From the NCBI GenBank assembly GCA_964635475.1, contig CAZWPY010000003.1:6303-70302 (forward strand): a stretch of 64,000 bases of DNA, given 5' to 3'. The position numbers were made by a program, and so were the translations under genes. Below the pieces are notes generated by a model. The model saw only the letters and a program-made list of their open reading frames with translations. It was not told where the DNA came from and did no database searches. Position 1 is the first letter of the stretch. The number at the start of each line of letters is the position of its first letter. This stretch comes from an uncultured Acidimicrobiia bacterium (GTDB lineage: Bacteria; Actinomycetota; Acidimicrobiia; Acidimicrobiales; CAZWPY01). Positions 1 through 47,376 of this stretch are shown one piece after another.

Positions 1-2
1 AT

Positions 3-116
3 CCGCTTCCGCGTTACTTCTTCTTGATGAAGGAGCTGGAGCTGCTACTCGGCGGCGCGACACTGCAGCTGCGCGAATTGGGACGAGTACTGGCGGGAGC
101 TGCGACACCCGCGTGA
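3..116 (+). CDS. Acyl-CoA dehydrogenase, C-terminal fragment (gene enters from the left edge)
   Basis: My translation of frame 3 gives PLPRYFFLMKELELLLGGATLQLRELGRVLAGAATPA*. This resembles the C-terminal helix of FadE27-type actinobacterial ACAD subunits (consensus like PLHRYFLxAKxLExxLGG). Confidence 0.7.
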   Translation, partial: PLPRYFFLMKELELLLGGATLQLRELGRVLAGAATPA

Positions 117-145
117 TGAGCCCGTTAGGGCTCGACCGGCGCTGA

Positions 146-1369
146 TCAGCAGACCGTGGCCATGATGCGGATCGGTGAGCGCATCAAATTGGTTGCCATC
201 CAGTCGATTTCGATGACGTCGATTCGGGAGAAGCTGGTGGCGAGCGCGTGGAGCAGCGAACGCGCTTGCATTCTGGCGAACTCGCGACCAATGCAGAGGT
301 GCGGTCCGTAGCCGAAGGCCAACGCGGGGTTGGGGTCGCGGTCGGCGATGAGTTCGTCGGGGCGGGTGAACACGGCGGGATCGCGGTTGGCCGCCCCCAG
401 CGAGCACACGATGCGGTCACCCGCGTGCAGCTCCGCGCCCGCGAGCTGTCGTGTGGTCGTGACGGTGCGCGTCGCCCACTGCGACGGCGACGACAAACGT
501 AAAACCTCGCCGAGAAAGAGCTCGCTGCTGCGCGGGTCGGCAGCGACCAGTGCGAGGGGGCGTGTGACCCCCGAGTCGACGGCGGGCCACGGCGTGATTC
601 GTCCGGTGCTCGCCGACTCGAGCAGCACGTGCGCGAGTAGCGACGATACCGAGTTGAGCCCGCCGTTGGGCAACGTCAGCCACGCGCCTGCGCCGACGAG
701 GGTCGCAGCTCTGATCGCGGCCCGAGTTGGTTCAACAGGCCCGCCGAGGATCTGTGTGGTCAAGTCAGCGGGCCAGTTGCCCGTGCTGGCCCGTGAGCGC
801 ACGATTTGCCGAAACGCTGCCGCTTGCTGGCGGATCGCGCTTCTCCCAAGACCGTGGCGCTGCTCGCTGAGCTCGTCGCCGCCGGTGATGAGCCAATCGA
901 GGCGCGAGAGTTCGATCAACCCGCCGAGTTCCCGCAACATGTCGAGCGTCGCGACGTCGACGCCGGTGAGCGCGGCCATGGCCCGACGGCTCATCGGCAG
1001 TGACAGCGCCGCGTGGACGTCGACGGGAGTCCCGCGAGGGACCGACGCGACGAGTTCGGCGGCTAGTTCATCGAGTTGCGGCTGAATCCAGCCGAGCGCC
1101 TTTCGGCCAAAGCTCGGGGCGATCCGCTGCCGTTCAGCGCCATGAGCCCCCGGCGGAAGCGAGACGATGCCGAATATCGCCGCGTCACCGTCGATGCCCG
1201 ACGACGAGAAGTCATCCGGGTTGCCGAGCACCTCAAGGGTGTGGCGGTGTGACACCACGATCCAGCCGGGCCGGTCGGGAATCCGTATGACGTCGCCCCG
1301 CTCGCGGATCGCCGCGAAGGCCGCGCTCGGGTCCTGCCTCGCGTCTGGCCCCAGCATCGAGAGGTACAC
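146..1369 (-). CDS. Cytochrome P450 with atypical I-helix
   Basis: Heme motif FGYGPHLCIG, ExxR (EVLR), SLGAANRDP and FTRPDELIADR meander; 407 aa; GTG start. Confidence 0.9.
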   Translation of the reverse strand: MYLSMLGPDARQDPSAAFAAIRERGDVIRIPDRPGWIVVSHRHTLEVLGNPDDFSSSGIDGDAAIFGIVSLPPGAHGAERQRIAPSFGRKALGWIQPQLDELAAELVASVPRGTPVDVHAALSLPMSRRAMAALTGVDVATLDMLRELGGLIELSRLDWLITGGDELSEQRHGLGRSAIRQQAAAFRQIVRSRASTGNWPADLTTQILGGPVEPTRAAIRAATLVGAGAWLTLPNGGLNSVSSLLAHVLLESASTGRITPWPAVDSGVTRPLALVAADPRSSELFLGEVLRLSSPSQWATRTVTTTRQLAGAELHAGDRIVCSLGAANRDPAVFTRPDELIADRDPNPALAFGYGPHLCIGREFARMQARSLLHALATSFSRIDVIEIDWMATNLMRSPIRIMATVC

Positions 1370-1378
1370 GCGTGCACT

Positions 1379-2566
1379 CTAAGAGCCACGCGCCGCGCCG
1401 TCGTGAGTGTCGTTGGGCCTGAACGTCACGACGAGGCGCGTGAGCCCGCCGAATACTGAGGCTGAGGGGCGCGCGGCGTCGTCGATCCTCGCGAGCGGTG
1501 CGGCGCTGACGCAGGCGAGCAACATCTCTTTGAGTTGTTGTTGAGCCAGGGGAGCACCAAGGCAGTGGTGGATACCGCCGCCAAAAGCGAGTGGCGTGTC
1601 GGTGCGACCCCGCCGCAAGCGATACGGGTCGGAGAAGACGTGCCCATCGTGGTTCGCGGCCTCAAGCCACACCGTGAGCAGTTCTCCGCGACGAACGTCG
1701 AGCCCGCCCAAGGAGTGTGGCTCGATCACGACCCGGCCCGTCACGCGGGTCGGGCTCGCGCTACGTAGGCACTCCGACACCCACCACGCGGGCGGCTGGC
1801 CCGCGATCACCTCTGCCGGGTCGAGCGCGAGTGCGCCACTCAGTGTCGCGGCCAGCGTCCAGGTGAGCAGCAGCGCAGTGGTGTGGAAGCCGGCGACGGC
1901 GAGGTCGCACCACACGTCGAGGGCCTCACTGGGGTCGAGCAGATCGGCCGCGACGGCTTCACGTAACACGTGCGGCGCGGGCGCGTCGGTGGCCAGCGCG
2001 GCGGCCGCTAGACCCCGCAGGTCGCCAGCCGCGGTCGCGAGTCGCGTGCCGCCGATCGATTGGCCGTACACACCGAGCAGAGCCATCGCGGGAGCGCGGA
2101 GGGCGTCGGCCTCGGTTCCCAGCAGGTGCGCGACCCGCCGACGGGCAAGTGGTTCGCACAGGTGTGTGTAGAGATCGACCGGCGCGCGCTGGGCGACAAA
2201 CGAATCGAAACGATCGATGATCGAATCGATGGGCTGCTGCGTGATCTGGCGGAACAGGGGAGCGATCGCTGCACGTACTCGGGTGTGTTGCGGCGGATTC
2301 ATTGCCGTCAGTGAACGGCGCAGGTCGAAAGGCTCGTGTTCGAGGAACGCGCTGACCGCTGCGTTGTGGTCGACGGCGACGTGCGTGCTGCGTAGGACCG
2401 CGTGACACATCTGATAACTGGCGACCACGACACCGAGCCGTCGGGTACGAAGAATGCCGCCGTGCGCGTGCGCGAGCGCGATCGACTCGCGCACCGCGGC
2501 GGGCTCAGTGTCGTTCCAACTGCTGTCGAGTTGCTCGCGAGCGCGGCGGCGCGATTCCCGATTCAC
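1379..2566 (-). CDS. Cytochrome P450
   Basis: Heme motif FGGGIHHCLG, ECLR, AGFHTT and LTAMNPPQHTRVR. Start moved from the ORF-track 3082 to the GTG at 2566, 2 bp after the methyltransferase stop and preceded by AGGA. Confidence 0.88.
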   Translation of the reverse strand: MNRESRRRAREQLDSSWNDTEPAAVRESIALAHAHGGILRTRRLGVVVASYQMCHAVLRSTHVAVDHNAAVSAFLEHEPFDLRRSLTAMNPPQHTRVRAAIAPLFRQITQQPIDSIIDRFDSFVAQRAPVDLYTHLCEPLARRRVAHLLGTEADALRAPAMALLGVYGQSIGGTRLATAAGDLRGLAAAALATDAPAPHVLREAVAADLLDPSEALDVWCDLAVAGFHTTALLLTWTLAATLSGALALDPAEVIAGQPPAWWVSECLRSASPTRVTGRVVIEPHSLGGLDVRRGELLTVWLEAANHDGHVFSDPYRLRRGRTDTPLAFGGGIHHCLGAPLAQQQLKEMLLACVSAAPLARIDDAARPSASVFGGLTRLVVTFRPNDTHDGAARGS

Positions 2567-2568
2567 GG

Positions 2569-3474
2569 CTAGTCCTGCGTGTCGAGCAGTGAACGTTCGA
2601 GCAGGTTCCGCGTTTGTCGGCGCAGGCGACGGGCGGGCACTCCCAGTACGTGGCGCCAGGAATCGGCGACCGGTTGGGCAGCGGCGGGTGCGCGTCCGGC
2701 CCACGTCCAGTAGGACATGAGCCCTCGTTCCATCGCCGTAAACACCGTTGCGTTCGTTGCGTCGAAGGAGCGCATCGCAGCAACGAGGCGTGGATCGTGT
2801 GATCCGCGCGAGCTGTCGGCGACCCACTCGCGTCGCTGGCGAGCGGCCCGCAGTACTCCCTCGGTGATGTCTCGCGAGCGGAAGTCGGTCAACCCCAAGC
2901 CGTCCTCGGCCGCGAGGAATCGAGCGAAGTCCGCTGGCTCGGACCCGACGCCGATCCCGGCGATCGCAACCCAACCTCCCGTTATGCATACCCGTCGCAT
3001 CTCGCAGGAGGCCGCAACTACGTCGGCGCAGTAGTGCAACGTCTCGATCGCCATGACGAGCGCCGCGCTCGCCGTGCGGCACGGAGCGTGTTGGGTGTCG
3101 CCGACGGCGCCGAGGTGATGCGCGCCAGGCCGACGAACACCGGTTCGCACGAGCGCCTCGACAAGGTCGATTGCGACGCAGTGCACAGCGGTCGCGGGCG
3201 ATGTGGTGGTGAATGCAGCCGTTGCGTTATCGAGGTTGGCGCCCAGACCTGCGCCGAGCTCGATGATGGGCCCGGCTGCGAGCGGGCCGACGATCGAGGC
3301 CAACGCGTCGCGAACCCCCATCGCGTCGGGTCGCCAGGTCTGGCCCCGCTCGGTATGGCCGACGTTGAGGCTCGCGATCGATCCGAGCTGCGCGAGCCGA
3401 GACGGCGTGAGGTGGTACGCCCTACGAACCGCAGCGTGTAGTTCGGCTTCCGCTCGCGGCGTGGGCGTGGTCAC
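2569..3474 (-). CDS. Class I SAM-dependent methyltransferase (resembles Rv2952/fatty-acid O-methyltransferase type)
   Basis: Motif I IELGAGLG, AIETLHY, RDITEGVLRA and C-terminal VFTAMERGLMSYW. GTG start at 3474 overlaps the upstream stop (GTGA). The ORF-track extension to 4449 is spurious. Confidence 0.8.
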   Translation of the reverse strand: MTTPTPRAEAELHAAVRRAYHLTPSRLAQLGSIASLNVGHTERGQTWRPDAMGVRDALASIVGPLAAGPIIELGAGLGANLDNATAAFTTTSPATAVHCVAIDLVEALVRTGVRRPGAHHLGAVGDTQHAPCRTASAALVMAIETLHYCADVVAASCEMRRVCITGGWVAIAGIGVGSEPADFARFLAAEDGLGLTDFRSRDITEGVLRAARQRREWVADSSRGSHDPRLVAAMRSFDATNATVFTAMERGLMSYWTWAGRAPAAAQPVADSWRHVLGVPARRLRRQTRNLLERSLLDTQD

Positions 3475-4421
3475 GGCCGGCTCGTGCGAGTTGCGCCGGG
3501 TTCGGGCGCCCGGAAACGCTCGAGGTCGCGCCGAATTTTCAGGATCCCGTTCTCCCCAGGTGCCAGCAACGGATCGCTGAGCCATACCTTGTGGTTCCAG
3601 ATCGCGGCGTCCTGTTCCATTTGCACGTGCACGGCTCGGAAGAATTGCCGGGAGAGCGATGTGAGAAGCGTTGTCGAGGCCGCGCCGGGGGTGTGAGCTC
3701 GGCCGGGCCCCGCCGGCTGTGTCGAGAGCCCGACGTGAACCGTCACCTCGGTGGCGCCTCGTGGCACGACCGAGGTGATCAGCATCGCGTCGAGCAGGCC
3801 CGCGACCCGCAGTGTCGACAGGAGCAGTCCTGGGCCGTGCGCGGTGGAGTGCACCTCGGTTGTGCCGTCGCTGCCGTCGAGCGTGGGCATACGTTGCAGC
3901 GAGCGGATATGACGGATCGGGCCCACCCAGCGGTCTTCCAGCACTACGGGTGTCGTCGCCGGGGCATGGATCGTCGAGAAGTGGGCCCAGTCGACTGAGT
4001 TCTCTGCGATGTCCATCCACGTCGTGTGGATCGGGTAACTCGACCAGTGCCAAGCAGCCACGGGCACCGGGTCGGGCGGGAGTTCCCAGTGCGGCGCGTC
4101 GCCGCCAGGGTGCCACCAAAACCACGTCCGACCGGCCCACACGCCGACAGGCAGTCCGTCTGCTGCTGGCGGTCTCCCACAGCGCGGGCACCGCAGCTGT
4201 CCTCGGGCTGGCGCTGGTTTGACCCACAGCGGCGCGCCGTCGTGTTGGCATCGCGGCGACGACACGGCAGCGGGTTCGCGGGTGTTGAGCCACTCGCGAC
4301 CAAAGGCCACGAAACGCCCGACGCGGTGTGTGTCGTGCGGCGGCAACTCGGGTGTGACGTACCAGCCGAAGGGGAACCAGCCCGGTGAGTTTGCCCGCGA
4401 CGCGCCGGGCGCGGGGTTCAT
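3471..4421 (-). CDS. KshA/Neverland-like Rieske oxygenase variant (CxH-x17-CxxC)
   Basis: FPFGWY N-terminus, non-heme iron motif ENSVDWAHFSTIH, C-terminal EQDAAIWNHK. ATG at 4421 overlaps the upstream stop (ATGA). Confidence 0.8.
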   Translation of the reverse strand: MNPAPGASRANSPGWFPFGWYVTPELPPHDTHRVGRFVAFGREWLNTREPAAVSSPRCQHDGAPLWVKPAPARGQLRCPRCGRPPAADGLPVGVWAGRTWFWWHPGGDAPHWELPPDPVPVAAWHWSSYPIHTTWMDIAENSVDWAHFSTIHAPATTPVVLEDRWVGPIRHIRSLQRMPTLDGSDGTTEVHSTAHGPGLLLSTLRVAGLLDAMLITSVVPRGATEVTVHVGLSTQPAGPGRAHTPGAASTTLLTSLSRQFFRAVHVQMEQDAAIWNHKVWLSDPLLAPGENGILKIRRDLERFRAPEPGATRTSRP

Positions 4422-5095
4422 TGCGGTCGGGCCGGCTCGCGCACGACAAACGCCGAGATCGCGGGACTGAGTGCTCGTGTCGCGGTTGCAGTGACCTCGT
4501 CGGCCACGGGCTCGCCCGGCACTGTGGTGAGCGGAATCACGCCCGCCCACACCGGCCACTTGGTCAGGTCGTCCTCGTCATCGATCGGAGCGCCGGAACG
4601 GACCTTCGCCGAGGCTTCGTCGAGTGAGAACGCAAACACCATGGTCGCGGCCAGTTCCTTTGCGGTTGGCGGACGAGTTTCGCCGCTGCGGCCGGGCAGC
4701 ACGTGATCGGTCAATGTCTTCAGCAGTTCGAGCTTTTCGTCGGCGTCGGTGACAACTCGGGCGGACCCTTGCACCACCACAGCGCGGTAGTTCATCGAGT
4801 GGTGAAACCACGAGCGCGCCGCGACGATTCCATCGAGCGACCACGCGGTTACGCATGCTTGCGCGCCAGCCTTGAGCGCGCGGCTGAGCCGTGATGCGGG
4901 TGACGCGTGTGTGACGAGTTCGTCGCCGCACCGAGCGATTACCTGCGGCAGCGCGAGGGGGCCAGCTTGATCGGCGATGGCGACGACACCGATCGAGACC
5001 GAGTCGAGGATCGTGTCGACGGTCTCGCGGTCGTAGCGGCCGCGGCCGCTGAAACGAACCTTCGAACGAGCTGAGGGCGAGGTTGCGTCGATCAC
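4418..5095 (-). CDS. Pyridoxamine 5'-phosphate oxidase-like (Pyridox_ox_2) flavin-binding protein
   Basis: RGRYDRETVDTILD, LDGIVAARSWFHHSMNYRAVVVQG, SAKVRSGAPIDDEDD and WAGVIPL are typical of the family. Start estimated at GTG 5095. Confidence 0.85.
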   Translation of the reverse strand: MIDATSPSARSKVRFSGRGRYDRETVDTILDSVSIGVVAIADQAGPLALPQVIARCGDELVTHASPASRLSRALKAGAQACVTAWSLDGIVAARSWFHHSMNYRAVVVQGSARVVTDADEKLELLKTLTDHVLPGRSGETRPPTAKELAATMVFAFSLDEASAKVRSGAPIDDEDDLTKWPVWAGVIPLTTVPGEPVADEVTATATRALSPAISAFVVREPARPQ

Positions 5096-5264
5096 CGCGC
5101 CATTGTGGCGCACCGGCGGTGCCGCGCCACCGTGATGGGGTGTGGCGCACAGGCGATGCTGCGAACGGGGGGTCGAGCCTCTTGTTCCCCCTCGTGGCTG
5201 AGGAGTCTCTACGATGCGTGCCGACACGGCGGCGGGGGTCGGCCGTGACGATGGAGGAGTCGAC

Positions 5265-7046
5265 ATGTCAGCTCACACCGCTCGTCGTGGGATCCACGGC
5301 CGACGTCTGTTGCGTTCGCGTCGAGTTCGTGCTGGCGTCGCACTCGCGCTGTTATTGACCGCGGGCGCGTGTGGCGAGACCGACAAGCAGACATCGGGTT
5401 CATCGGCGCTCGACACGACTCGCGCCGAGAAGGTGGCCGAACTCGCGGCCGGCATGGAACCACAGGGCGGCCCGGGCGAAACCGTCAAAGTGATCGTGCG
5501 CGACAACGTCTTTGACCCTGAGGTGCTCGTGATCAAGCCGGGCACAACGGTGCAGTGGGTCAACGAGGGCCGCAATTCGCACAACATCTACCCTGCGCTG
5601 GAGGGCGACTTTGCACCGGTCAAGACCGGTGACTTTGGCCCCGGCGATGTGGCGTCGATCACCTTCGACGATCCGGCGGAGATCTTCTACTACTGCACGA
5701 TTCACGGAACTCTCGACAAAAACAAGCTGCCCAAAGGCCAAAAGGGTCTGATCGTTGTCAGCGAAACTCCTGTCGACGCCGCGGCCACCGACGAATCAAG
5801 CTCGGTGGACGGTGGCGATGACGAAGCTGCGGCAACGATTAACGTCCCCGACGACTACCCAACCATCCAAGCTGCTGTCGACGCCGCCGAGCCGGGCGCT
5901 TTGATCTTGATCGCTCCCGGCACGTATCACGAAGCCGTTGTCGTGACGACGCCGGAGTTGGTGATTCGCGGTCTCGATCGCAACGAGGTCGTGCTTGATG
6001 GCGAGTTCGAACTAGAGAACGGTTTTAAGGTTGTTGAAGCCGATGGCGTCGCGATCGAAAACATGACCGCGATCAACTACACACGTAACGGATTCTTCTG
6101 GACCGGCGTGACCGGTTACCGCGGCTCATACCTCTCCACGACACGTACGGGCGACTACGGGATTTACGCGTTCGACTCGACAAAGGGTCAATTCGACCAC
6201 TCGTACGGGTCGGGTTCGCCCGACGCCGGGTTCTACATCGGGCAGTGCAACCCGTGCGACGCGGTCCTCGACAACGTGATCGCCGAGTACAACGGACTGG
6301 GCTGGTCGGGCACGAACGCGAGCAAGAACTTGCTGATCGTGAACTCGATTTTCCGTTACAACCGCGCGGGGATTGTGCCCAACTCCGGCGATGGTGAAGC
6401 GCTACCGCCAGAGGACGAGCAAACGATCGTCGGCAACCTCGTCTATTCCAATAACAACGGCCAGACTCCCGCTATCGACGCGGCCAAGTTGGGTCAAGGC
6501 AACGGCATTCTCGTCGCCGGCGGTATCAACAACGTGATCGAGCGAAACCTCGTATGGGATCACGAGGTTGCGGGTATTGCCGCGGTTCCCAACCCCGACA
6601 AGACGTTCTGGATCTCGTCGGGCAACAAAGTGCGCGGCAATGTCGTGAGCGACTCGGGGGAGGCCGACCTCGCCTACTTCGGCGGCGAGGGCAACTGTTT
6701 TGAAGGCAACACGTTCGCCACGTCGCGGCCGTCGAACATCGAGCAGGTCGCGCCCTGTTCGGGGACCGGAATCGAGGCGACCGACGCGCTCGATTTGCAG
6801 AAGTACATCGACGCGACCAAACCAGCCTCGGTCGACTACAAGACCGCGCCGACACCACCGTTGCCCAAACTTGAGGGCATGAAGGACCCGAAGACGGCCA
6901 AGGCTGAGCCGGCGACCAACGTGCCGATGAAGATCGACCTCGCGGCGATCAAGGTGCCGACGAAGCCGACTGATCTTGGTGTTGCGCCGACCCCGGCGCC
7001 CGCCGGCGGATCGACCGCCGCGCCGAGCACGACGTCGAGCAACTAA
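5265..7046 (+). CDS. Lipoprotein with cupredoxin (plastocyanin-like) domain and right-handed parallel beta-helix domain
   Basis: GGAGGAG RBS before ATG 5265; lipobox-like TAGAC; HN..YYCTIHG copper-ligand loop; VPDDYPTIQAAVDAA and repeated G-x-Y/N beta-helix turns; Pro/Thr-rich tail. Confidence 0.8.
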   Translation: MSAHTARRGIHGRRLLRSRRVRAGVALALLLTAGACGETDKQTSGSSALDTTRAEKVAELAAGMEPQGGPGETVKVIVRDNVFDPEVLVIKPGTTVQWVNEGRNSHNIYPALEGDFAPVKTGDFGPGDVASITFDDPAEIFYYCTIHGTLDKNKLPKGQKGLIVVSETPVDAAATDESSSVDGGDDEAAATINVPDDYPTIQAAVDAAEPGALILIAPGTYHEAVVVTTPELVIRGLDRNEVVLDGEFELENGFKVVEADGVAIENMTAINYTRNGFFWTGVTGYRGSYLSTTRTGDYGIYAFDSTKGQFDHSYGSGSPDAGFYIGQCNPCDAVLDNVIAEYNGLGWSGTNASKNLLIVNSIFRYNRAGIVPNSGDGEALPPEDEQTIVGNLVYSNNNGQTPAIDAAKLGQGNGILVAGGINNVIERNLVWDHEVAGIAAVPNPDKTFWISSGNKVRGNVVSDSGEADLAYFGGEGNCFEGNTFATSRPSNIEQVAPCSGTGIEATDALDLQKYIDATKPASVDYKTAPTPPLPKLEGMKDPKTAKAEPATNVPMKIDLAAIKVPTKPTDLGVAPTPAPAGGSTAAPSTTSSN

Positions 7047-7708: not shown

Positions 7709-7722
7709 TAGAACACGTTCTG
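7709..7722. promoter_or_regulatory. KstR-type operator TAGAACACGTTCTG
   Basis: Differs from TnnAACnnGTTnnA only at the last base; intergenic between the divergent lipoprotein and ABC substrate-binding genes. Confidence 0.75.
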
Positions 7723-18761: not shown

Positions 18762-19979
18762 CTACAGCCGCACTGGCAGTTGTTTGATCCCGTTGATGAA
18801 ATTCGATCGCAGACGCCGGGGATCGCCCGCCAAAGTGAGGCCCGGCGCCCGAGTGACGAGTTCGTCAAACATGACGGCGATTTCGAGCCGCGCAAGGCTG
18901 GCGCCGAGGCAGAAGTGCGGTCCGCCGCCGCCGAAAGCCACGTGTTCGTTGGGGTCGCGGGTGATGTCGAAGGCGTGCGGGCGGTCGAAGACCCGTTCGT
19001 CACGGTTGGCCGCGAGATACCACAACGTCACCTTTTCGCCCTCGCGGATCAGTTGCCCGCCGAGCTCGGTGTCGCAGGTGGCTGTGCGGCGGAAGTACAT
19101 CACCGGCGTCGCCCAGCGGATGATCTCCTCGACGGCGCTGGGTATCAGTTCTGGCCGGTCGCGCAGGAGTTGCCACTGGTCGGGGTTACGCATAAATGCC
19201 AAGGCCCCATGCGAGATGGCATTGCGGGTTGTCTCGTTGCCCGCGACCGACAGCAGCAGGAAAAACATGTTGTATTCCATCTCCGTCAGCCGTTCGCCAT
19301 CGACCTCGCCCTCCAGCAGCGCCCCGACGATGTCGTTTGCCGGAGCGGCCCGGTGTCGTTGTGCAAGTTCGTTGGCGTAGGCCCACATCTCTGCGGCCGC
19401 TGCCAAAGAATCCTCGGGGGTGTTGTTGAACTCCGGGTCGTCGAAACCGATCAGGCGATTCGACCAGTCGAAGAGTTTGCTGCGGTCGTGACGCGGCACC
19501 CCGAGCAGTTCCGCGATCATCTGCAGCGGGAGCTCGGCAGCGAGTGACTCGACAAAGTCGATCTCGCGGCCGGCGCGTTGCTCGTCGATCGCGGTGTCGA
19601 TCAGCTCGACGGCGATCTCGCGGACCCGATGGTGCAGGCTCGCAACCATCTTGGGTGTAAATCCACGATTCACGAGCCGCCGCAGCCGAGTGTGGTGCGG
19701 CGGATCGTTGTTGAGCATGAGTAGCGAGTCGCTGTTGTCGCCCTGGGGATCGCGGTCCTCCATCATCGTGCCGCCTCGACCTGACGAGAAGGTTGCCGCG
19801 TCGCGGTTGGCGGCGACGACGTCGGCGTGGCGTGTCAACACCCAAAAGCCCGGACCACGGCGGCCGGGCGCCGATTGCCAGGTGACTCCCTGCTCGCGTA
19901 AGTCCGCAAAGTGTTCCCACGGTGGCTCGTGTTCAAACGTGGCGGGGTCGGCGAGGTCGGCGGGTGCCATCGTCGTCAC
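18762..19979 (-). CDS. Cytochrome P450, CYP125-like steroid C26 monooxygenase
   Basis: LLSVAGNETTRN I-helix, EEIIRWATPVMYFRRTAT, FGGGGPHFCLG. GTG start overlaps the fadD19 stop. Confidence 0.88.
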   Translation of the reverse strand: MTTMAPADLADPATFEHEPPWEHFADLREQGVTWQSAPGRRGPGFWVLTRHADVVAANRDAATFSSGRGGTMMEDRDPQGDNSDSLLMLNNDPPHHTRLRRLVNRGFTPKMVASLHHRVREIAVELIDTAIDEQRAGREIDFVESLAAELPLQMIAELLGVPRHDRSKLFDWSNRLIGFDDPEFNNTPEDSLAAAAEMWAYANELAQRHRAAPANDIVGALLEGEVDGERLTEMEYNMFFLLLSVAGNETTRNAISHGALAFMRNPDQWQLLRDRPELIPSAVEEIIRWATPVMYFRRTATCDTELGGQLIREGEKVTLWYLAANRDERVFDRPHAFDITRDPNEHVAFGGGGPHFCLGASLARLEIAVMFDELVTRAPGLTLAGDPRRLRSNFINGIKQLPVRL

Positions 19980-21616
19980 GCAGACGTGGTTGCGCTCGAC
20001 TCCTCGGCGATACGTTTGGCCTCGCGATAGTCGGGTTTGGCGTTGGGCAGGCGCGGCACGGTGTCGACGAGCACCAACGCGCGGGGGAGTTTGTAGCCAG
20101 CGAGCTGCGCGCGGCAGTGCGCGCTGAGGGCTTCGAGTGTCGGCTGCGCGTCGGGGCGGGCTTGCACGACGGCGGCGACACGTTGGCCGAATCGATCGTC
20201 GGGGATCCCGACAACCAAGACGTCGAAGACATCTGGGTGTTCCTTCAAGATCGCCTCGACCTCTTCGGGATACACCTTCTCTCCGCCGGTGTTGATGCAC
20301 TGCGACCCGCGCCCGAGCAAGGTGATCGTGCCGTCGGCTTCATAGATCGCGAAGTCGCCGGGGATCACGTACCGCACGCCATTGACCACGGGAAACGTCG
20401 CGGCAGTTTTGTCGGGGTCCTTGTAGTACCCGAGCGGGACGTGGCCGCTGCGTGCGATGCGGCCCGTTTGGCCGGTCCCGGGGGGCAGCGGGTTCATGTC
20501 GTCATCGACCACGATCGTCTCGGCGCCGGGAACCACGGTCGGCCCGGCCTTCATGTCGGTGTCCTTGGTGACCTGCGCGAGGCCGGAGAAGCCCGTCTCG
20601 GTCGAGCCAATCGAATCGGTCAGCACGATGTTGGGCATGAGTTCGAAAAACTGGTTCTTCACTGCGCGGCTGAAGATCGCCGCCGTCGAGCCGAACGCGA
20701 GCAACGACGAGGTGTCGAACCGAGTCGGGTCGGCGGCGAGGGTTTCGACCAGCGGTCGAGCCATCGCGTCGCCGGTCGCGATGATCACGTTGACTCGGGC
20801 GTCGGCGACGGTTTGCCACGCGGCCTCGGGGTCGAAACTCGCCGCGGGAGACAACACGATCGTGTGTCCCTCGAACAGCGATCGCAGTGATCCCCACTGA
20901 CCCGCGCCGTGCATCAGCGGCGGGAGCACGAAGTACGTGAGGTTGAAACCCTCGGCGGCACGTTCGGCCAACGTCAGCGGCGACGCCACGGCGTTGCCGT
21001 CGATATCGAATCCTCCGCCGAGCGTGAAAAACACGTCCTCGTGGCGCCACATGACACCCTTTGGCATCCCGGTCGTGCCGCCCGTGTAGAGGATGTAGAG
21101 GTCATCGGGCGAGCGACCCTCGGTCGGACGCTCGGTCGGCGCCGCCGCGAGTTCGGTTTCGTAGTCGCGCGGTTCGGGCACCGAGTCGGGCCGCTCGCCC
21201 TGTGCGTGGGTCGCGTCGGTCTCGATTCGTAACGCGAGTCGCAGACCCGGCGCCGCGTGTCCGGCATCAAAAACAAGTTGCTCGTAACGGTCTTGGTAGA
21301 TCAGCCCGACGAGGTCGGCGTTGTCGAATAAGTATCGGCACTCGTCGGCTGTGTAGCGGTAGTTGACGTTGATCGGAACGACCCCGGCCTTAAACGCACC
21401 GAGCAAACACTCGACCCATTCGTGGCCGTTCATCGCGATGATCCCGATGTGGTCGCCACGGCGGATCCCTGACGCGAGCAATACGTTGGCGAGGCGGGTG
21501 GCTCGTTCATCCAGCTCGGCGAAGGTGAACGATCGGTCGCCGCTGATTAGGGCCGTCCGCGGCCCAACCCGGTCGGCAGCGGCTTCAAAAAGGTCGGCGA
21601 GCTGGAACTGTGTCAC
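19976..21616 (-). CDS. fadD19: Steroid side-chain acyl-CoA synthetase (FadD19-like)
   Basis: YILYTGGTTGMPKGVMW AMP-binding motif, VPINVNYRY, GRGSQCINTGGEKVYPEEVE, KPDY. Divergent from echA19, as in mycobacteria. Confidence 0.85.
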   Translation of the reverse strand: MTQFQLADLFEAAADRVGPRTALISGDRSFTFAELDERATRLANVLLASGIRRGDHIGIIAMNGHEWVECLLGAFKAGVVPINVNYRYTADECRYLFDNADLVGLIYQDRYEQLVFDAGHAAPGLRLALRIETDATHAQGERPDSVPEPRDYETELAAAPTERPTEGRSPDDLYILYTGGTTGMPKGVMWRHEDVFFTLGGGFDIDGNAVASPLTLAERAAEGFNLTYFVLPPLMHGAGQWGSLRSLFEGHTIVLSPAASFDPEAAWQTVADARVNVIIATGDAMARPLVETLAADPTRFDTSSLLAFGSTAAIFSRAVKNQFFELMPNIVLTDSIGSTETGFSGLAQVTKDTDMKAGPTVVPGAETIVVDDDMNPLPPGTGQTGRIARSGHVPLGYYKDPDKTAATFPVVNGVRYVIPGDFAIYEADGTITLLGRGSQCINTGGEKVYPEEVEAILKEHPDVFDVLVVGIPDDRFGQRVAAVVQARPDAQPTLEALSAHCRAQLAGYKLPRALVLVDTVPRLPNAKPDYREAKRIAEESSATTSA

Positions 21617-21649
21617 CCTGCCATGTCAACACGATCCGCGCCGACGAGC

Positions 21650-21663
21650 AAGAACGTGTTCTC
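21650..21663. promoter_or_regulatory. KstR-type operator AAGAACGTGTTCTC
   Basis: Core AACnnGTT intact, both terminal bases deviate; lies in the fadD19/echA19 divergent gap. Confidence 0.72.
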
Positions 21664-21753
21664 ATTTGTACGCTGACCTGCGCCTACGATGATCACGACG
21701 AGACTGGCGCGGTCGCGAAGCGTGCCGTTGTGCCCAAGGAGAAGGCAACGAAC

Positions 21754-22560
21754 ATGGTGGAGCTGGGAAACGATCACTGCTCGGTTGTGCACGACGGCCA
21801 CATTGTGACGATCACGATGAACCGACCCGAACGAAAAAACGCGTTGTCGGCTCGGATGCTCGTCGCAATGTACGACGCGTGGCACTACATCGATGCAACG
21901 CCCGAGGTGCGGGTCGCGGTGTTGACGGGTGCGGGCGGCGATTTCTGCTCGGGTGCCGACCTCAAGGCGATGGCCTCAGATGACCAAGCGGATCAAGCCG
22001 TGATGCACCGTTGGGGCGACGACCCAGATCTGCACTGGAAGGCCCTGCTTCGCCATCACCGGGTCTCCAAGCCACTGATCGCTGCGGTGGAGGGGATTGC
22101 TGTCGCCGGCGGGACCGAGATCCTGCAAGCCACCGATATCCGTGTGGCGGCCCAGGGCGCGACGTTTGGCGTCAGCGAGGTCCGCCGCGGCTTGTTCCCT
22201 CTCGGCGGGTCGACGGTGCGACTGCGCCGGCAGATCCCGCACACGGTTGCGATGGACCTGTTGCTGACCGGCCGCTTCATCACAGCGACCGAGGCGAAGG
22301 AGATTGGTTTGGTCGGCCGTGTTGTGCCCGATGGCGCCGCGCTCGACACTGCGTTGGAAATTGCCGAGCAGATTGCTGCCAACGGTCCGCTTGCCGTGCA
22401 AGCCGTAAAACGCTCGGTGGTCGAAGGCGCCGACATGTCCGAGGTCGACGCGTTGGCCCATGAGCTGGAGATCGGGCAACCGATCTTTGCCACCAAGGAC
22501 GCGAAAGAGGGTCCGCGGGCGTTTGCCGAAAAGCGCGCTGCGGTGTTTACCGGTGAGTGA
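21754..22560 (+). CDS. echA19: Enoyl-CoA hydratase (EchA19-like)
   Basis: TMNRPERKNAL, FCSGADLK, AVAGGTEILQATDIRVA, GSTVRLRRQIP, DAKEGPRAFAEKR. AAGGAG RBS upstream of ATG 21754. Confidence 0.85.
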   Translation: MVELGNDHCSVVHDGHIVTITMNRPERKNALSARMLVAMYDAWHYIDATPEVRVAVLTGAGGDFCSGADLKAMASDDQADQAVMHRWGDDPDLHWKALLRHHRVSKPLIAAVEGIAVAGGTEILQATDIRVAAQGATFGVSEVRRGLFPLGGSTVRLRRQIPHTVAMDLLLTGRFITATEAKEIGLVGRVVPDGAALDTALEIAEQIAANGPLAVQAVKRSVVEGADMSEVDALAHELEIGQPIFATKDAKEGPRAFAEKRAAVFTGE

Positions 22561-33812: not shown

Positions 33813-33826
33813 TGGAACGTGTTCTA
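33813..33826. promoter_or_regulatory. KstR-type operator TGGAACGTGTTCTA
   Basis: Perfect TnnAACnnGTTnnA match, 9 bp upstream of the acyl-CoA dehydrogenase start. Confidence 0.8.
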
Positions 33827-35952: not shown

Positions 35953-35966
35953 GAGAACGTGTTCTA
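35953..35966. promoter_or_regulatory. KstR-type operator GAGAACGTGTTCTA
   Basis: Differs from the consensus only at the first base; upstream of the Zn-ADH/Rv3521/ltp operon. Confidence 0.78.
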
Positions 35967-37159: not shown

Positions 37160-37615
37160 ATGTCAGAAGTGTTCTACGCCGACAGGCGGCTGACGTATAC
37201 CTACAAAAGGACGACAGGGCCCGTGCTTGGCCGGTTCTTCACGGGCTTACGTGACGGTCGGATCGAAGCCGTGGTCGCGGCGGACGGCACGGTGTTGTGT
37301 CCACCAACCGAGTACGACCCAAGAACGAGTGAGAGTTTGCTCGACGCGCCGTGGGTCGAGGTCGGGCCCGGCGGCGTCGTACAGACGTGGAGCTGGGTCG
37401 ACCAACCGCGGCCGACCCACCCATTGCCGTCGCCGTTTGCGTGGGCGCTGGTAACGCTCGATGGGGCATCGACGCCGATGCTGCATGCCGTCGATACCGG
37501 TGGCGACCCGATGGCGCTTGCCAACGGCGCGCGGGTAACGGTGCGCTGGGCGCAGGATCGTGTGGGCCAGATTCGCGACATCGAGTGTTTCGTTCCAGAG
37601 GGGGCCCAGCAGTGA
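37160..37615 (+). CDS. DUF35/OB-fold protein matching the N-terminal half of Rv3521
   Basis: GPVLGRFFTGLR, PPTEYDP, PFAWALVTLDGA, RVTVRWA, IRDIECF. Confidence 0.85.
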   Translation: MSEVFYADRRLTYTYKRTTGPVLGRFFTGLRDGRIEAVVAADGTVLCPPTEYDPRTSESLLDAPWVEVGPGGVVQTWSWVDQPRPTHPLPSPFAWALVTLDGASTPMLHAVDTGGDPMALANGARVTVRWAQDRVGQIRDIECFVPEGAQQ

Positions 37616-38118
37616 ACTCGACCGAGGAAGAACTCGCGCCGGTCACGGTGATTCGAACACCGATCGACTTGCCGTACACCTACAGCGCGGGCCACGCGCA
37701 GTCGCGGTTCTTGGCCGGGCTCGCGCACGGCAAGTTTCTCGGCCAGCGCTGCCCCGTGTGTTCCAAGGTGACGGTGCCGCCGCGTGGTGCGTGTCCCACG
37801 TGCGGCGTGCCCACTACTGATGAGGTCGAGTGCGCCAACACGGGGACCATCACCACGTTTTGTGTGGTCAACATCAACTTCACCGGACAGCAGATCCAAG
37901 TGCCCTACGTGTGTGCTCAGGTTTTGCTCGACGGCTCGAACCAGTCGTTTATGGCGCTGGTGCAGGAGTGCGATGCGGCCGACGTGCGTATGGGAATGAG
38001 GGTCGAGGCGTTGTGGAACGACCCCGAGACCTGGACTCCGTCGTTTAACAACATTCGATATTTCCGGCCGACAGGTGAACCCGATGCGGCCTACGACACG
38101 TTCGCGGAGTACTTGTGA
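37612..38118 (+). CDS. DUF35 Zn-ribbon/OB-fold protein matching the C-terminal half of Rv3521
   Basis: CPVC..CPTC, GTITTFCVVNI, PYVCAQVLLDG, MGMRVEA, YFRPTGEPDA. GTG 37612 overlaps the upstream TGA. Confidence 0.87.
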   Translation: MNSTEEELAPVTVIRTPIDLPYTYSAGHAQSRFLAGLAHGKFLGQRCPVCSKVTVPPRGACPTCGVPTTDEVECANTGTITTFCVVNINFTGQQIQVPYVCAQVLLDGSNQSFMALVQECDAADVRMGMRVEALWNDPETWTPSFNNIRYFRPTGEPDAAYDTFAEYL

Positions 38119-39194
38119 TGAGGCGCCCCGTTGCCATAGTCGGCTTTGGCCAAACCCCTGCCGTGCGTTCTGATGAACGCAACGAGGTCGAACTCGTGAT
38201 GGAGGCGACGTCGAAGGCGTTGGCCGACGCGAATGCCTCGGTGAAACAGATGGGTTTCATCTGCTCGGGGAGCTGCGACTTCATCGTCGGGTTGCCCTTC
38301 TCCTTTGTTGTCGCGCTCGACGCAGTCGGTGCGTGGCCGCCGGTGTCGGAGAGCCACGTCGAGATGGACGGCGCGTGGGCACTCGCCGAGGCGGTGACCC
38401 GTTTGCAACACGACGACACCGACGCGGCGCTCGTGTACGGCTTTGGCAAGTCGTCGCTCGCGCCGCTGCGTGACGTGTTGTGCCTGCAGCTCGACCCCTA
38501 CACGATGGCGCCGCTGTGGCCCGACTCGGTCAGCCTCGCAGCGCTGCAGGCCAAAGCCTGCCTCGACGCGGGGACCGTGACTGAGCAGCAAATGGCCGAG
38601 GTGGTGGCACGTTCGCGCCGGGCAGCGCTCAACAACCCCCATGCGCAGCTGAGCGGCAGCCTGAGCGTCGATGAGCTTCTGGCCGAACCGATGTTCTCAG
38701 CGCCGCTGCGTAAACACGACCTGCCGCCGATCAGCGACGCAGGTTGCGCGGTCGTGCTCGCGGCCGGCGACGCGGCCTACGAGTTCAGTGAGCGGCCGGC
38801 GTGGATCACGGGTCTGGATCACCGAATCGAGGCGCACCAGCTCGGCTTACGCGACTTGACGACTTCTGTGTCGACTCGACTCGCTGGCCAACACGCGGGC
38901 GTGGCTGACGGTCCGGTCGACGTCGCCGAGTTGTACGGCACGTTTAGTCATCAGGAGGTGATGATCGCCAACGCACTAGGGCTCGATCCTTCGACCACAG
39001 TGATCAATCCCTCCGGTGGGCCCCTCGCGGCCCACGCCATCATGTCGGCGGGCCTCACTCGTTTTGGCGAGGCGGCTGCTCGCATCACACGAGGCGAGGC
39101 GCAGCGAGTGGTCGCGCATGCGACCTCGGGACCGCTCTTGCAACAGAACCTGGTCGGCGTGATGTCGGCCGCACGCCCGGAGGGATCGAAGTGA
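38115..39194 (+). CDS. ltp4: Thiolase-like lipid-transfer protein (Ltp4)
   Basis: CSGSCDFIVGLPFSFV, ESHVEMDGAWAL, LVYGFGKSS, NPSGGPLAAH, AHATSGPLLQQNLV. Confidence 0.85.
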   Translation: MMRRPVAIVGFGQTPAVRSDERNEVELVMEATSKALADANASVKQMGFICSGSCDFIVGLPFSFVVALDAVGAWPPVSESHVEMDGAWALAEAVTRLQHDDTDAALVYGFGKSSLAPLRDVLCLQLDPYTMAPLWPDSVSLAALQAKACLDAGTVTEQQMAEVVARSRRAALNNPHAQLSGSLSVDELLAEPMFSAPLRKHDLPPISDAGCAVVLAAGDAAYEFSERPAWITGLDHRIEAHQLGLRDLTTSVSTRLAGQHAGVADGPVDVAELYGTFSHQEVMIANALGLDPSTTVINPSGGPLAAHAIMSAGLTRFGEAAARITRGEAQRVVAHATSGPLLQQNLVGVMSAARPEGSK

Positions 39195-47336: not shown

Positions 47337-47362
47337 TGTCGCCACCTCTCGCGTACCGCGAT

Positions 47363-47376
47363 TAGAACACGTTCTA
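47363..47376. promoter_or_regulatory. KstR-type operator TAGAACACGTTCTA
   Basis: Perfect TnnAACnnGTTnnA match, 26 bp upstream of the Rieske gene ATG. Confidence 0.82.

What the first reader, a model, noticed from the sequence alone, without database searches (positions are those of the whole stretch)
146..5095. Five-gene tailoring operon: flavoprotein, variant Rieske oxygenase, methyltransferase and two P450s, with no scaffold enzyme
Seen: five co-oriented genes joined by ATGA/GTGA overlaps or gaps of 10 bp or less, converging on an acyl-CoA dehydrogenase. There is no PKS, NRPS or terpene cyclase, no ferredoxin or reductase, and no KstR box upstream. Established: KshA/Neverland Rieske enzymes act on sterol rings, and Rv2952-type methyltransferases act on lipids. 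Inference: a dedicated pathway that modifies (oxidises and methylates) a pre-existing sterol or lipid rather than degrading it. I cannot match this combination to a described pathway.
Basis: partly seen in the sequence, partly recalled or inferred. Interest (0 to 1): 0.75.

Follow-up and report, generated by a model that had tools for sequence, protein, structure and literature searches.

The report
Orphan oxygenase–methyltransferase operon beside sterol-breakdown genes
A tightly packed, very rare five-gene operon (a flavin/haem protein, an iron oxygenase with an altered iron-sulfur site, a methyltransferase and two unusual P450s) sits in the middle of an uncultured actinobacterium's cholesterol-breakdown genes but outside their regulator's control, and probably oxidises and methylates a steroid-like molecule in a way not yet described.

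Summary
Five intact minus-strand genes (146-5113) are joined by ATGA and GTGA overlaps or gaps of 2 and 9 nt, and converge on an acyl-CoA dehydrogenase.

What the genes are:
- Gene 1 is an Anf3/MSMEG_4975-type FAD + haem b protein, with all three haem-binding residues conserved.
- Gene 2 has a KshA fold and an intact 2-His-1-carboxylate iron site, but its Rieske motif is CxH-x17-CxxC, with a ~25-residue deletion after it. All more distant relatives examined keep CxH...CxxH.
- The two P450s are orphans (best outside homolog 28% identical) and both lack the I-helix acid residue.

Four of the five proteins have almost no relatives among billions of sequences. In a sister lineage the methyltransferase and P450a are fused, and a B12 radical-SAM methylase is added.

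The operon lies inside a canonical KstR cholesterol-catabolism region: ChsE4-ChsE5, FdxD-like ferredoxin, CYP125, FadD19, EchA19, Ltp3/4 and a normal KshA-like gene. KstR boxes are enriched in the window (5 found, 0.57 expected), but none lies upstream of the operon.

Function and chemistry are untested. I rate it a new variant of known kinds, moderately interesting.

The parts
4418..5113 (-). Gene 1: Anf3/MSMEG_4975-type PNPOx-fold protein, predicted to bind FAD and haem b. Start is GTG 5113 or GTG 5095.
   Evidence: Pfam PF12900, 124 bits. PDB 6rk0 (Anf3) and 4ybn, E about 4e-36. The Anf3 haem ligand His and the propionate-binding Arg and Lys align to identical residues (PMC6579470). Belongs to a large family, more than 7000 clusters at E<1e-25.
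3471..4421 (-). Gene 2: KshA-fold non-haem-iron oxygenase with a Rieske-derived CxH-x17-CxxC site and a ~25-residue deletion in the Rieske domain.
   Evidence: PF19298 KshA_C at 77 bits, no PF00355 hit. Alignment with 22 canonical relatives. AF2 pLDDT 85. Foldseek top hits are KshA, TM about 0.7. Only 2 representatives below 1e-30 among 1.84 billion proteins.
2569..3474 (-). Gene 3: class I SAM-dependent methyltransferase of unknown acceptor. Motif I is ELGAGLG, followed by an acidic AIDL.
   Evidence: Pfam Methyltransf_11, 33 bits. Only sub-threshold NCBIfam hits. Fused to P450a in the sister lineage.
1379..2566 (-). Gene 4: orphan cytochrome P450a. Haem loop FGGGIHHCLG, ExxR = ECLR, I-helix AGFHTT.
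   Evidence: Pfam p450 hit on the C-terminal part only. Best PDB hit 79 bits. Motifs read from the alignment.
146..1369 (-). Gene 5: orphan cytochrome P450b. Haem loop FGYGPHLCIG, ExxR = EVLR, I-helix NGGLNS.
   Evidence: The best homolog outside the clade is 28% identical.
5096..5213 (.). Divergent promoter region. It has no KstR box and carries GCGCCAC/GTGGCGC four times plus the palindrome GCACCGcCGGTGC.
   Evidence: The palindrome is partly conserved in L008.
5214..7046 (+). Divergent neighbour: a secreted or lipoprotein-like cupredoxin + NosD-like beta-helix protein. It is kept next to the operon in all three lineages, but functional membership is unproven.
   Evidence: Pfam Copper-bind, Beta_helix and NosD. 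82% identical in the sister lineage. A Pyridox_ox_2 gene also lies near cupredoxin and beta-helix genes in an Acidimicrobiales MAG.
1..116 (+). 3' end of the convergent ChsE5/FadE27-like acyl-CoA dehydrogenase beta subunit. The rest of this gene, the ChsE4-like alpha subunit and a ferredoxin lie beyond the window edge.
   Evidence: L001 gene map. PDB 4x28_D 5e-54 and 4x28_A 4e-149. Ferredoxin. KstR box 32 nt upstream of the ferredoxin start.

Best explanation
This is a lineage-restricted, functional, co-translated oxidation-plus-methylation module that sits inside an actinobacterial KstR-type steroid-catabolism region but is regulated separately from it.

Most likely mechanism (inferred): a steroid-like or other polycyclic or isoprenoid lipid is hydroxylated by the two orphan P450s and by the KshA-fold non-haem-iron oxygenase. 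At least one new hydroxyl or carboxyl group is then methylated by the SAM methyltransferase. P450a and the methyltransferase act back to back, because they are a single polypeptide in the sister lineage. That lineage adds a B12 radical-SAM C-methylase.

Electrons for the P450s probably come from the neighbouring FdxD-like 3Fe-4S-type ferredoxin. The oxygenase has a Rieske-derived site with Cys3His ligation (Cys3 only in one lineage). This would be a lower-potential [2Fe-2S] centre that lacks the usual His-Asp-His bridge. It may be reduced by the translationally coupled Anf3-type FAD/haem protein rather than by a KshB-type reductase.

Shown: gene content, motifs, fold, rarity, synteny, the fusion, and the genomic context. 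Inferred: the substrate class, the order of reactions and the electron path.
For: - Operon structure: start/stop overlaps and tiny gaps. The genes are intact in three lineages whose synonymous sites are saturated, with dN/dS 0.19-0.37.
- Catalytic motifs are kept. In the oxygenase, E140-x3-D144-x2-H147-x4-H152 and D271 are invariant across 26 sequences. In the P450s, the haem Cys loop and ExxR are present. The methyltransferase keeps motif I. Gene 1 keeps the Anf3 haem His, Arg and Lys.
- A 710-aa MT-P450a fusion occurs in two independent assemblies.
- A KedN5-family B12 radical-SAM methylase is added in the sister lineage.
- Steroid context: ChsE4-ChsE5 homologs (4e-149 and 5e-54); an FdxD-like ferredoxin with a conserved KstR box; CYP125 (9e-157); FadD19-, EchA19-, Ltp4- and Ltp3-like genes, above or near the NCBIfam cut-offs; a ChsH2-like gene; a canonical KshA-like gene with a perfect KstR box.
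- The nearest outside homologs of P450b also sit beside ACAD pairs and ChsH2/Ltp2-like genes.
- An engineered Rieske ferredoxin with the same second-His-to-Cys change assembles a low-potential 3Cys-1His [2Fe-2S] cluster (PMC2946596).
Against: - There is no direct evidence for any substrate.
- The operon has no KstR box, although its neighbours do.
- The genome already has canonical CYP125 and KshA-like genes, so the operon is not needed for standard cholesterol catabolism.
- A methyltransferase has no known role in steroid degradation.
- The whole 20-kb neighbourhood is collinear between the lineages, so adjacency to steroid genes may be inherited position rather than functional linkage.
- Gene 1 belongs to a very common family found in unrelated contexts, so its role as reductase is speculative.
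- One lineage has Arg in place of the first Rieske His, so the site may bind no cluster at all.
- The P450 similarities to lipid-cluster P450s (27-28% identity) are at generic level.
Confidence: 0.45

Rival explanations
1. The operon provides tailoring steps for a secondary metabolite whose scaffold genes lie elsewhere in the genome. Its position next to steroid genes would then be coincidental.
For: - The cluster genes evolve 3-5 times faster than most of the flanking core genes, as accessory or secondary-metabolism genes typically do.
- The P450s are orphans with non-canonical I-helices.
- The extra enzyme in the sister lineage matches the KedN5 family of natural-product C-methylases best (213 bits).
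- There is no KstR box.
- Hydroxylation followed by O-methylation is a classic tailoring pattern (established knowledge).
Against: - No PKS, NRPS, terpene cyclase, RiPP precursor, transporter or resistance gene was found in the 64-kb window or in 10 kb beyond its edge.
- No room for a conserved small ORF is apparent in the intergenic spaces.
- Split clusters are unusual in bacteria.
- The immediate neighbours on both sides are KstR-regulon genes.
Confidence: 0.25
2. The operon is a catabolic or detoxifying module for a non-steroid hydrophobic compound, such as an aromatic, a terpenoid or a xenobiotic, that this organism meets in its habitat.
For: - Alpha3 Rieske oxygenases of this fold attack many substrates, including dicamba, caffeine, guaiacol and phthalate (Foldseek list).
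- The window is rich in other oxygenases: three FMO/BVMO-like genes and an esterase.
- Methylation of hydroxylated xenobiotics is a known detoxification route (established knowledge).
Against: - There are no ring-cleavage, dehydrogenase or CoA-activation genes inside the operon.
- The context is specifically steroid side-chain genes.
- Extreme rarity argues against a common pollutant pathway.
Confidence: 0.2
3. The operon is a decaying remnant. Under this reading the altered Rieske site marks a dead oxygenase, and the operon is drifting toward loss.
For: - dN/dS is higher than in most flanking genes (0.19-0.37 against 0.03-0.17).
- The canonical Rieske ligands are lost, and one lineage also lost the first His.
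- The radical-SAM gene is absent in the window's lineage.
Against: - All five reading frames are intact in three lineages separated by saturated synonymous divergence.
- All catalytic motifs outside the Rieske site are invariant.
- pN (0.20-0.37) is well below pS (0.59-0.68).
- The apparent truncations in L007 and L012 are 10-N assembly gaps, not mutations.
Confidence: 0.05

Closest known systems
KshA/KshB, 3-ketosteroid 9alpha-hydroxylase (class IA Rieske oxygenase; PDB 2zyl, 4qdc, 4qdf)
   Same: It is the best structural match (TM about 0.7 over the full length). It shares the KshA_C catalytic domain, the E/D-x3-D-x2-H-x4-H iron motif with the C-terminal Asp, and the bridging Asp. Like KshA, the gene lies among steroid-catabolism genes.
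   Different: About 21% identity. The Rieske motif is CxH...CxxC instead of CxH...CxxH, about 25 residues of the Rieske domain are deleted, and there is no PF00355 hit. No KshB-type reductase and no KstR box are present. A separate canonical KshA-like gene with a KstR box exists at 46401-47345.
Engineered H64C variant of Sulfolobus Rieske-type ferredoxin ARF (Kounosu et al. 2004, as reviewed in PMC2946596)
   Same: It has the same substitution, the second-motif His changed to Cys, giving a 3Cys-1His environment on a Rieske fold. That protein assembles a low-potential [2Fe-2S] cluster.
   Different: It is a laboratory mutant of a small ferredoxin. The window's protein is a natural, conserved variant inside an oxygenase alpha subunit. 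Its cluster content is unknown, and one lineage also has Arg for the first His.
Anf3 (Azotobacter vinelandii, PDB 6rk0) and MSMEG_4975 (PDB 4ybn)
   Same: PNPOx fold, E about 4e-36, with the haem-ligating His and the propionate-binding Arg and Lys conserved. Anf3 binds FAD and haem b and accepts electrons from ferredoxin (PMC6579470).
   Different: Anf3 is a terminal oxidase linked to the Fe-only nitrogenase. Here the gene is the first cistron of an oxygenase/methyltransferase operon, with no nitrogenase context.
CYP125/CYP142 with FdxD and ChsE4-ChsE5 in the mycobacterial cholesterol region
   Same: Two P450s lie next to ChsE4-ChsE5 and a small ferredoxin. Mycobacterium tuberculosis likewise uses two P450s of opposite stereochemistry on the sterol side chain (PMC8204306).
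   Different: P450a and P450b score only about 60-80 bits against CYP125, CYP142 and CYP124, and both lack the I-helix acid. The genome has its own true CYP125.
SxtT/GxtA and other biosynthetic alpha3 Rieske monooxygenases
   Same: They are the second-best structural matches and are short alpha-only oxygenases used for site-selective tailoring hydroxylation.
   Different: 15-16% identity. They have canonical Rieske ligands and a different pathway context.
KedN5-family B12 radical-SAM C-methyltransferases (sister lineage only)
   Same: It is the best NCBIfam match for the extra 836-aa gene (213 bits), placed after P450b in the same orientation.
   Different: The score is well below the family cut-off of 700 bits, and the gene is absent from the window's lineage.

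Membership tests
Rieske non-haem-iron oxygenase alpha subunit | Rieske [2Fe-2S] motif Cys-X-His-X(15-47)-Cys-X2-His (PMC12445004) | tested here: not met
   The window has C58-Q-H60-x17-C78-P-R-C81. All four members of the clade in the alignment have Cys in place of the last His, and one lineage has Arg in place of the first His. The 22 more distant relatives aligned all keep CxH...CxxH.
Rieske non-haem-iron oxygenase alpha subunit | Pfam Rieske domain (PF00355) detectable | tested here: not met
   No PF00355 hit at E<=0.01. The canonical paralogue at 46401-47345 scores 70 bits.
Rieske non-haem-iron oxygenase alpha subunit | Mononuclear iron 2-His-1-carboxylate site plus the bridging Asp | tested here: met
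   E140, N141, D144, H147, H152 and D271 are invariant in 26 aligned sequences.
Rieske non-haem-iron oxygenase alpha subunit | Overall fold: Rieske domain plus helix-grip catalytic domain | tested here: met
   AF2 model with pLDDT 85 and pTM 0.86. Foldseek gives KshA at E 1e-15 and TM 0.73 over about 330 columns.
KshA (3-ketosteroid 9alpha-hydroxylase) orthologue | Orthologue-level similarity, a KshB reductase partner and KstR control | tested here: not met
   E 2.7e-7 and about 21% identity. No reductase gene among the ORFs scanned in the window or the genes called in L001. No KstR box upstream.
Cytochrome P450 (both P450a and P450b) | Haem-thiolate loop FxxGxxxCxG and the ExxR motif | tested here: met
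   FGGGIHHCLG with ECLR, and FGYGPHLCIG with EVLR, conserved in the sister lineage.
Cytochrome P450 (both P450a and P450b) | I-helix acid-alcohol pair (A/G-G-x-D/E-T-T/S) | tested here: not met
   P450a has AGFHTT (His in place of the acid). P450b has NGGLNS (Asn in place of the acid, Ser in place of Thr). Both are conserved in the sister lineage.
A named CYP family (e.g. CYP125/142/124) | More than 40% identity to a family member (CYP nomenclature rule, established knowledge) | tested here: not met
   P450b's best non-clade hit among 5.8 billion proteins is 28% identical. The best PDB scores are about 80 bits for both. P450a was not searched against the large database.
Anf3/MSMEG_4975 flavin + haem PNPOx-like proteins | PF12900 domain plus the proximal haem His and the propionate-binding Arg and Lys | tested here: met
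   124 bits against a 27-bit cut-off. His, Arg and Lys align to Anf3 His70, Arg21 and Lys170 (PMC6579470). Cofactor content itself cannot be tested here.
Rv2952-type (phthiotriol) lipid O-methyltransferase | NCBIfam equivalog NF045823 above its cut-off | tested here: not met
   22 bits against a 300-bit cut-off, equal to the BioC and MenG noise hits. Only generic class I MT membership is met (Methyltransf_11 at 33 bits against 21; motif I intact).
KstR regulon | TnnAACnnGTTnnA operator in the promoter | tested here: not met
   None in 5096-5213, even with 2 mismatches. Boxes are present at 7709, 21650, 33813, 35953 and 47363, and upstream of the ferredoxin just outside the window.
Natural-product biosynthetic gene cluster | Core scaffold enzyme (PKS, NRPS, terpene synthase or RiPP precursor) in the neighbourhood | tested here: not met
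   None among the ORFs scanned in the window or in the 10-kb flanks of L001, L010 and L011.

The most novel reading that the evidence does not exclude
The clade may represent a natural new class of Rieske-derived oxygenase. Its [2Fe-2S] centre would be ligated by three Cys and one His, without the canonical His-Asp-His relay. It would be reduced by a dedicated Anf3-type FAD/haem flavocytochrome instead of a ferredoxin-NAD(P)H reductase. Together with an MT-P450 pair, which is fused in a sister lineage, it would convert environmental sterols into methoxylated or methyl-esterified steroid derivatives. That would be a sterol-modifying rather than sterol-degrading branch in uncultured Acidimicrobiia-like actinobacteria.
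Probability: 0.15. Interest if true: 0.8.

Novelty: new variant of a known kind. Interest (0 to 1): 0.55.

Why it matters
Rieske oxygenases are defined by their 2Cys-2His cluster and by the His-Asp-His relay to the catalytic iron. A conserved natural variant with Cys3His ligation and a trimmed Rieske domain would test how much of that design is essential. It would also give biocatalysis a lower-potential scaffold that so far has only been made by mutagenesis.

Pairing with an Anf3-type flavocytochrome would give that widespread but functionally obscure family a second physiological role.

An oxidise-and-methylate module inside a cholesterol-catabolism region, with an MT-P450 fusion in a relative, points to bacterial steroid modification chemistry not covered by the KstR paradigm.

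The organism appears in at least 51 assembly blocks with identical sequence in the six contigs compared, so the pathway may be environmentally relevant.

Tried and rejected
- **Wider synteny searches.** Two scans of the 185,579-species genome collection (oxygenase and beta-helix profiles) and two scans of JGI metagenomes (oxygenase and P450b profiles) returned no relatives. The beta-helix scan used poorly chosen patterns. Distribution therefore rests on the protein databases and 12 contigs.
- **Context of the nearest canonical Rieske relative (P0004).** Unrelated.
- **RiPP idea (small precursor ORF plus P450s, MT and rSAM).** No room for a conserved small ORF is apparent in the intergenic spaces. 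The '111-aa gene' after the rSAM in L007 is the antisense strand of the ACAD.
- **Decay idea.** The 674-aa truncated MT-P450a ORFs in L007 and L012 looked like a shared frameshift in the haem loop, but they are a run of 10 N.
- **AF2 model of the methyltransferase.** Failed (pLDDT 34 with a 2-sequence alignment), so no fold-based acceptor clue.
- **RNA and signal scans.** No Rfam family or tRNA in the window. No sigma-70 consensus promoter, and no more terminator-like sites than chance, in 1-5400.
- **Sample accessions.** Not found in the paper library, so the habitat is unknown.
- **Taxonomy.** Names are withheld for the relevant proteins. The only hint is that the best named homologs of gene 1 come from Acidimicrobiales MAGs.
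- **Horizontal-transfer signal.** GC of the operon (0.68) is within the window's range (0.61-0.68).

Full report
**Observation.** Reading the minus strand of 1-5400 with the ORF list gives five co-oriented genes.

| Gene | Window coordinates | Identity |
|---|---|---|
| 1 | 4418-5095 (or from GTG 5113) | Anf3-like / Pyridox_ox_2 |
| 2 | 3471-4421 | KshA_C-domain oxygenase |
| 3 | 2569-3474 | Methyltransf_11 |
| 4 | 1379-2566 | P450a |
| 5 | 146-1369 | P450b |

The junctions are an ATGA overlap, a GTGA overlap, a 2-nt spacer and a 9-nt spacer. Pfam assigns Pyridox_ox_2, KshA_C, Methyltransf_11, p450 and p450.

The plus-strand ORF that ends at position 116 is the tail of an acyl-CoA dehydrogenase. 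This is shown by a 62-kb metagenome contig (L001) that is 100% identical to the window over the 6.9 kb compared. The operon occurs with an identical sequence in six contigs from different samples, and the oxygenase protein is indexed in 51 assembly blocks, so it is not an assembly artefact.

**Gene 1 is more than a flavoprotein.** Its best solved relatives are Anf3 of Azotobacter (6rk0) and MSMEG_4975 (4ybn), both at E about 4e-36. Anf3 is a PNPOx-fold dimer that binds FAD and haem b. Its haem is ligated by His70 and held by Arg21 and Lys170, and it can be reduced through ferredoxin (PMC6579470). All three residues align to identical residues in the window protein. Unlike the other four genes, this family is very large (more than 7000 clusters at E<1e-25) and occurs in many unrelated contexts.

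**Gene 2 is a KshA-fold oxygenase with a non-canonical metal site.**
- Similarity: only the catalytic KshA_C domain is detected by Pfam, with no Rieske hit. Sequence similarity to KshA is remote (E 2.7e-7).
- Fold: an AlphaFold model built on 26 sequences is confident (pLDDT 85). It matches KshA structures over its whole length (TM about 0.7), followed by SxtT/GxtA, dicamba monooxygenase and NdmA/B.
- Canonical relatives: the alignment includes 21 of the best hits of an exhaustive profile search of 1.84 billion representatives, plus a canonical paralogue from the same window. All of these carry CPHLGAHLG...CPFHGW.
- This clade: its members carry C-(Q/P)-(H/R)-DGAPLW...C-P-(R/T)-C and lack about 25 residues after that motif.
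- Consequence for the ligands: the defining Cys-X-His...Cys-X2-His motif (PMC12445004) has become CxH...CxxC, and one lineage has also replaced the first His by Arg.
- Catalytic site: the iron motif (E140, D144, H147, H152, D271) is invariant.
- Electron relay: according to the reviews read, the bridging aspartate links the histidine ligands of both metal centres. In naphthalene dioxygenase the partner on the Rieske side is the second-motif His (my own recollection, not checked here). If so, the relay is broken on the Rieske side although the Asp is retained (inference).
- Precedent: the same His-to-Cys change engineered into a Sulfolobus Rieske ferredoxin yields a low-potential 3Cys-1His [2Fe-2S] cluster, whereas changing the first His abolishes assembly (PMC2946596).

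**Genes 3-5.**
- Methyltransferase: it has an intact motif I and post-I acidic residue but no informative family match. The 'Rv2952-type' hit is 22 bits against a 300-bit cut-off, level with BioC and MenG.
- P450s: both keep the haem-thiolate loop and ExxR. Both replace the I-helix acid (AGFHTT in P450a, NGGLNS in P450b), and this is conserved in the sister lineage.
- Similarity of the P450s: their best PDB scores are about 80 bits with no preference for any family. P450b's best homolog outside the clade is 28% identical, so by the 40% rule it would found a new CYP family. P450a, which was compared only with solved structures, probably would too.

**Rarity and relatives.** The oxygenase has three 90%-identity clusters among 5.8 billion proteins. 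The next-best representative scores 1e-26, against 1e-160 within the clade. No relative was found in the genome or JGI metagenome scans.

Related contigs define a sister lineage (L007, L010, L011, L012) and a third one (L008). They carry the same gene order, including the divergent cupredoxin/beta-helix gene.

In the sister lineage the methyltransferase and P450a form a single 710-aa protein in two independent assemblies. This is Rosetta-stone evidence that the two act together. A KedN5-family B12 radical-SAM methylase follows P450b there.

The shorter 674-aa ORFs in L007 and L012 are caused by a run of ten N, not by mutation.

**Selection.** Between the window and L011, synonymous sites are saturated (dS about 1.2-1.8).

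| Gene set | dN | dN/dS |
|---|---|---|
| Operon genes | 0.24-0.51 | 0.19-0.37 |
| Most flanking genes | 0.06-0.12 (up to 0.29) | 0.03-0.17 |

The operon therefore evolves faster than most of its neighbours but remains under purifying selection. This, together with intact frames and conserved catalytic residues, argues against decay.

**Context.** The whole 20-kb neighbourhood is collinear between the lineages and is a cholesterol-catabolism region of the mycobacterial type.
- The two convergent ACADs match both chains of 4x28 and of T. curvata Tcur3481/3483 (4e-149 and 5e-54). From my own knowledge 4x28 is ChsE4-ChsE5 (FadE26-FadE27), the enzyme that starts sterol side-chain beta-oxidation (function: PMC8204306; PMC10925408).
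- They are preceded by a 63-aa ferredoxin of the P450-partner type. A KstR box, GAGAACACGTTCTA, lies 32 nt upstream of the ferredoxin's start in both lineages.
- Inside the window there is a true CYP125 (18762-19970; 9e-157), 5 nt downstream of a FadD19-like ligase.
- The window also holds an EchA19-like hydratase, a ChsH2-like gene followed by Ltp4- and Ltp3-like genes, and a canonical Rieske + KshA_C gene preceded by the perfect box TAGAACACGTTCTA.
- KstR-like boxes are enriched (5 against 0.57 expected), yet none lies in the 118-bp promoter region of the operon. That region instead carries GCGCCAC/GTGGCGC four times.
- The nearest outside homologs of P450b also lie beside ACAD pairs and ChsH2/Ltp2-like genes.

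**Interpretation.** I think the operon is a lineage-specific oxidation-plus-methylation module acting on a steroid-like or related polycyclic lipid. This is guilt by association, confidence about 0.45. The P450s would be fed by the adjacent ferredoxin. The oxygenase would possibly be fed by the translationally coupled Anf3-type flavocytochrome, because neither a KshB nor a canonical Rieske relay is present.

Three readings remain open:
- Tailoring of a metabolite whose scaffold genes lie elsewhere. This is supported by the KedN5-like enzyme, fast evolution and the absence of a KstR box. It is weakened by the absence of any scaffold gene within about 75 kb.
- Catabolism of a non-steroid compound.
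- Decay, which is unlikely.

Its 'no ferredoxin' statement reflects the window edge.

**Novelty and score.** Every component belongs to a known superfamily, so this is not categorically new. Several things appear undescribed: the conserved natural Cys3His Rieske-derived oxygenase, its pairing with an Anf3-type protein, the MT-P450 fusion, and the placement inside but outside the control of a KstR steroid regulon. I found no matching description in the literature searches. Function is untested. I rate it a new variant of a known kind, interest 0.55.

Noticed in passing
window 18762-19970 (-): A bona fide CYP125 steroid C26-monooxygenase (E 9e-157 to CYP125MRCA, about 1e-102 to M. tuberculosis CYP125). 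It lies 5 nt downstream of a FadD19-like ligase (19976-21616), with an EchA19-like gene divergent from it (21610-22560) and a KstR-like box at 21650-21663. My first crude gene call put an ORF on the wrong strand here.
   Followed up: yes
window 7709-7722, 21650-21663, 33813-33826, 35953-35966, 47363-47376; L001 17065-17078; L011 16359-16372: KstR-type operators (core AGAACnnGTTCT) are strongly enriched: 5 in the window against 0.57 expected. This marks the window as part of a KstR steroid regulon. The box at 47363 is a perfect TAGAACACGTTCTA, 18 nt upstream of the canonical KshA-like gene.
   Followed up: yes
window 6321-6334 (+): A perfect KstR2-type palindrome, AGCAAGAACTTGCT (AnCAAGnnCTTGnT; 0.03 expected by chance), lies inside the coding sequence of the cupredoxin/beta-helix gene.
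   Followed up: no
window 5096-5150 (promoter of the operon): The heptamer GCGCCAC/GTGGCGC occurs four times within about 55 bp, including a 10-nt direct repeat GTGCGCCACA spaced 37 nt apart. There is also a 6-1-6 palindrome, GCACCGcCGGTGC, partly conserved in L008. This may be an operator array for an unknown regulator.
   Followed up: partly
window 37351-40363 (+): A ChsH2-like DUF35 gene followed by an Ltp4-like gene (PRK07937, 482 bits) and an Ltp3-like gene (PRK08313, 680 bits). From memory, this is the gene order of Rv3521-Rv3523 in M. tuberculosis.
   Followed up: partly
window 40418-42211 (+), 56825-58570 (-), 60922-62316 (+): Three flavin monooxygenase / Baeyer-Villiger-type genes. 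The first scores 704 bits against the PtlE (neopentalenolactone D synthase) model, below its 1100-bit cut-off.
   Followed up: no
window 49410-53348 (+): A 1312-aa protein with RHS repeats and a CBM96 domain, of lower GC3 than its neighbours. It is unrelated to the finding.
   Followed up: no
window 146-7046 compared with L001-L006: 6.9 kb is 100% identical at nucleotide level in six contigs from different ENA and SRA samples. This implies a clonal, widely sampled population or strain. The organism and habitat could not be identified with the tools.
   Followed up: partly
L013 5121-8809 (Acidimicrobiales MAG GCA_036506715.1): A 53%-identical homolog of gene 1 lies close to separate cupredoxin and beta-helix genes. 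The pairing of gene 1 with a cupredoxin/beta-helix protein may therefore be older than the four-gene oxygenase/MT/P450 block.
   Followed up: partly
L007 about 6300-6320 and about 10426; L012 about 4920: Runs of ten N inside the contigs create false truncations of the MT-P450a fusion, and possibly of the radical-SAM gene. The '111-aa' ORF after the rSAM in L007 is the antisense strand of the ACAD.
   Followed up: yes
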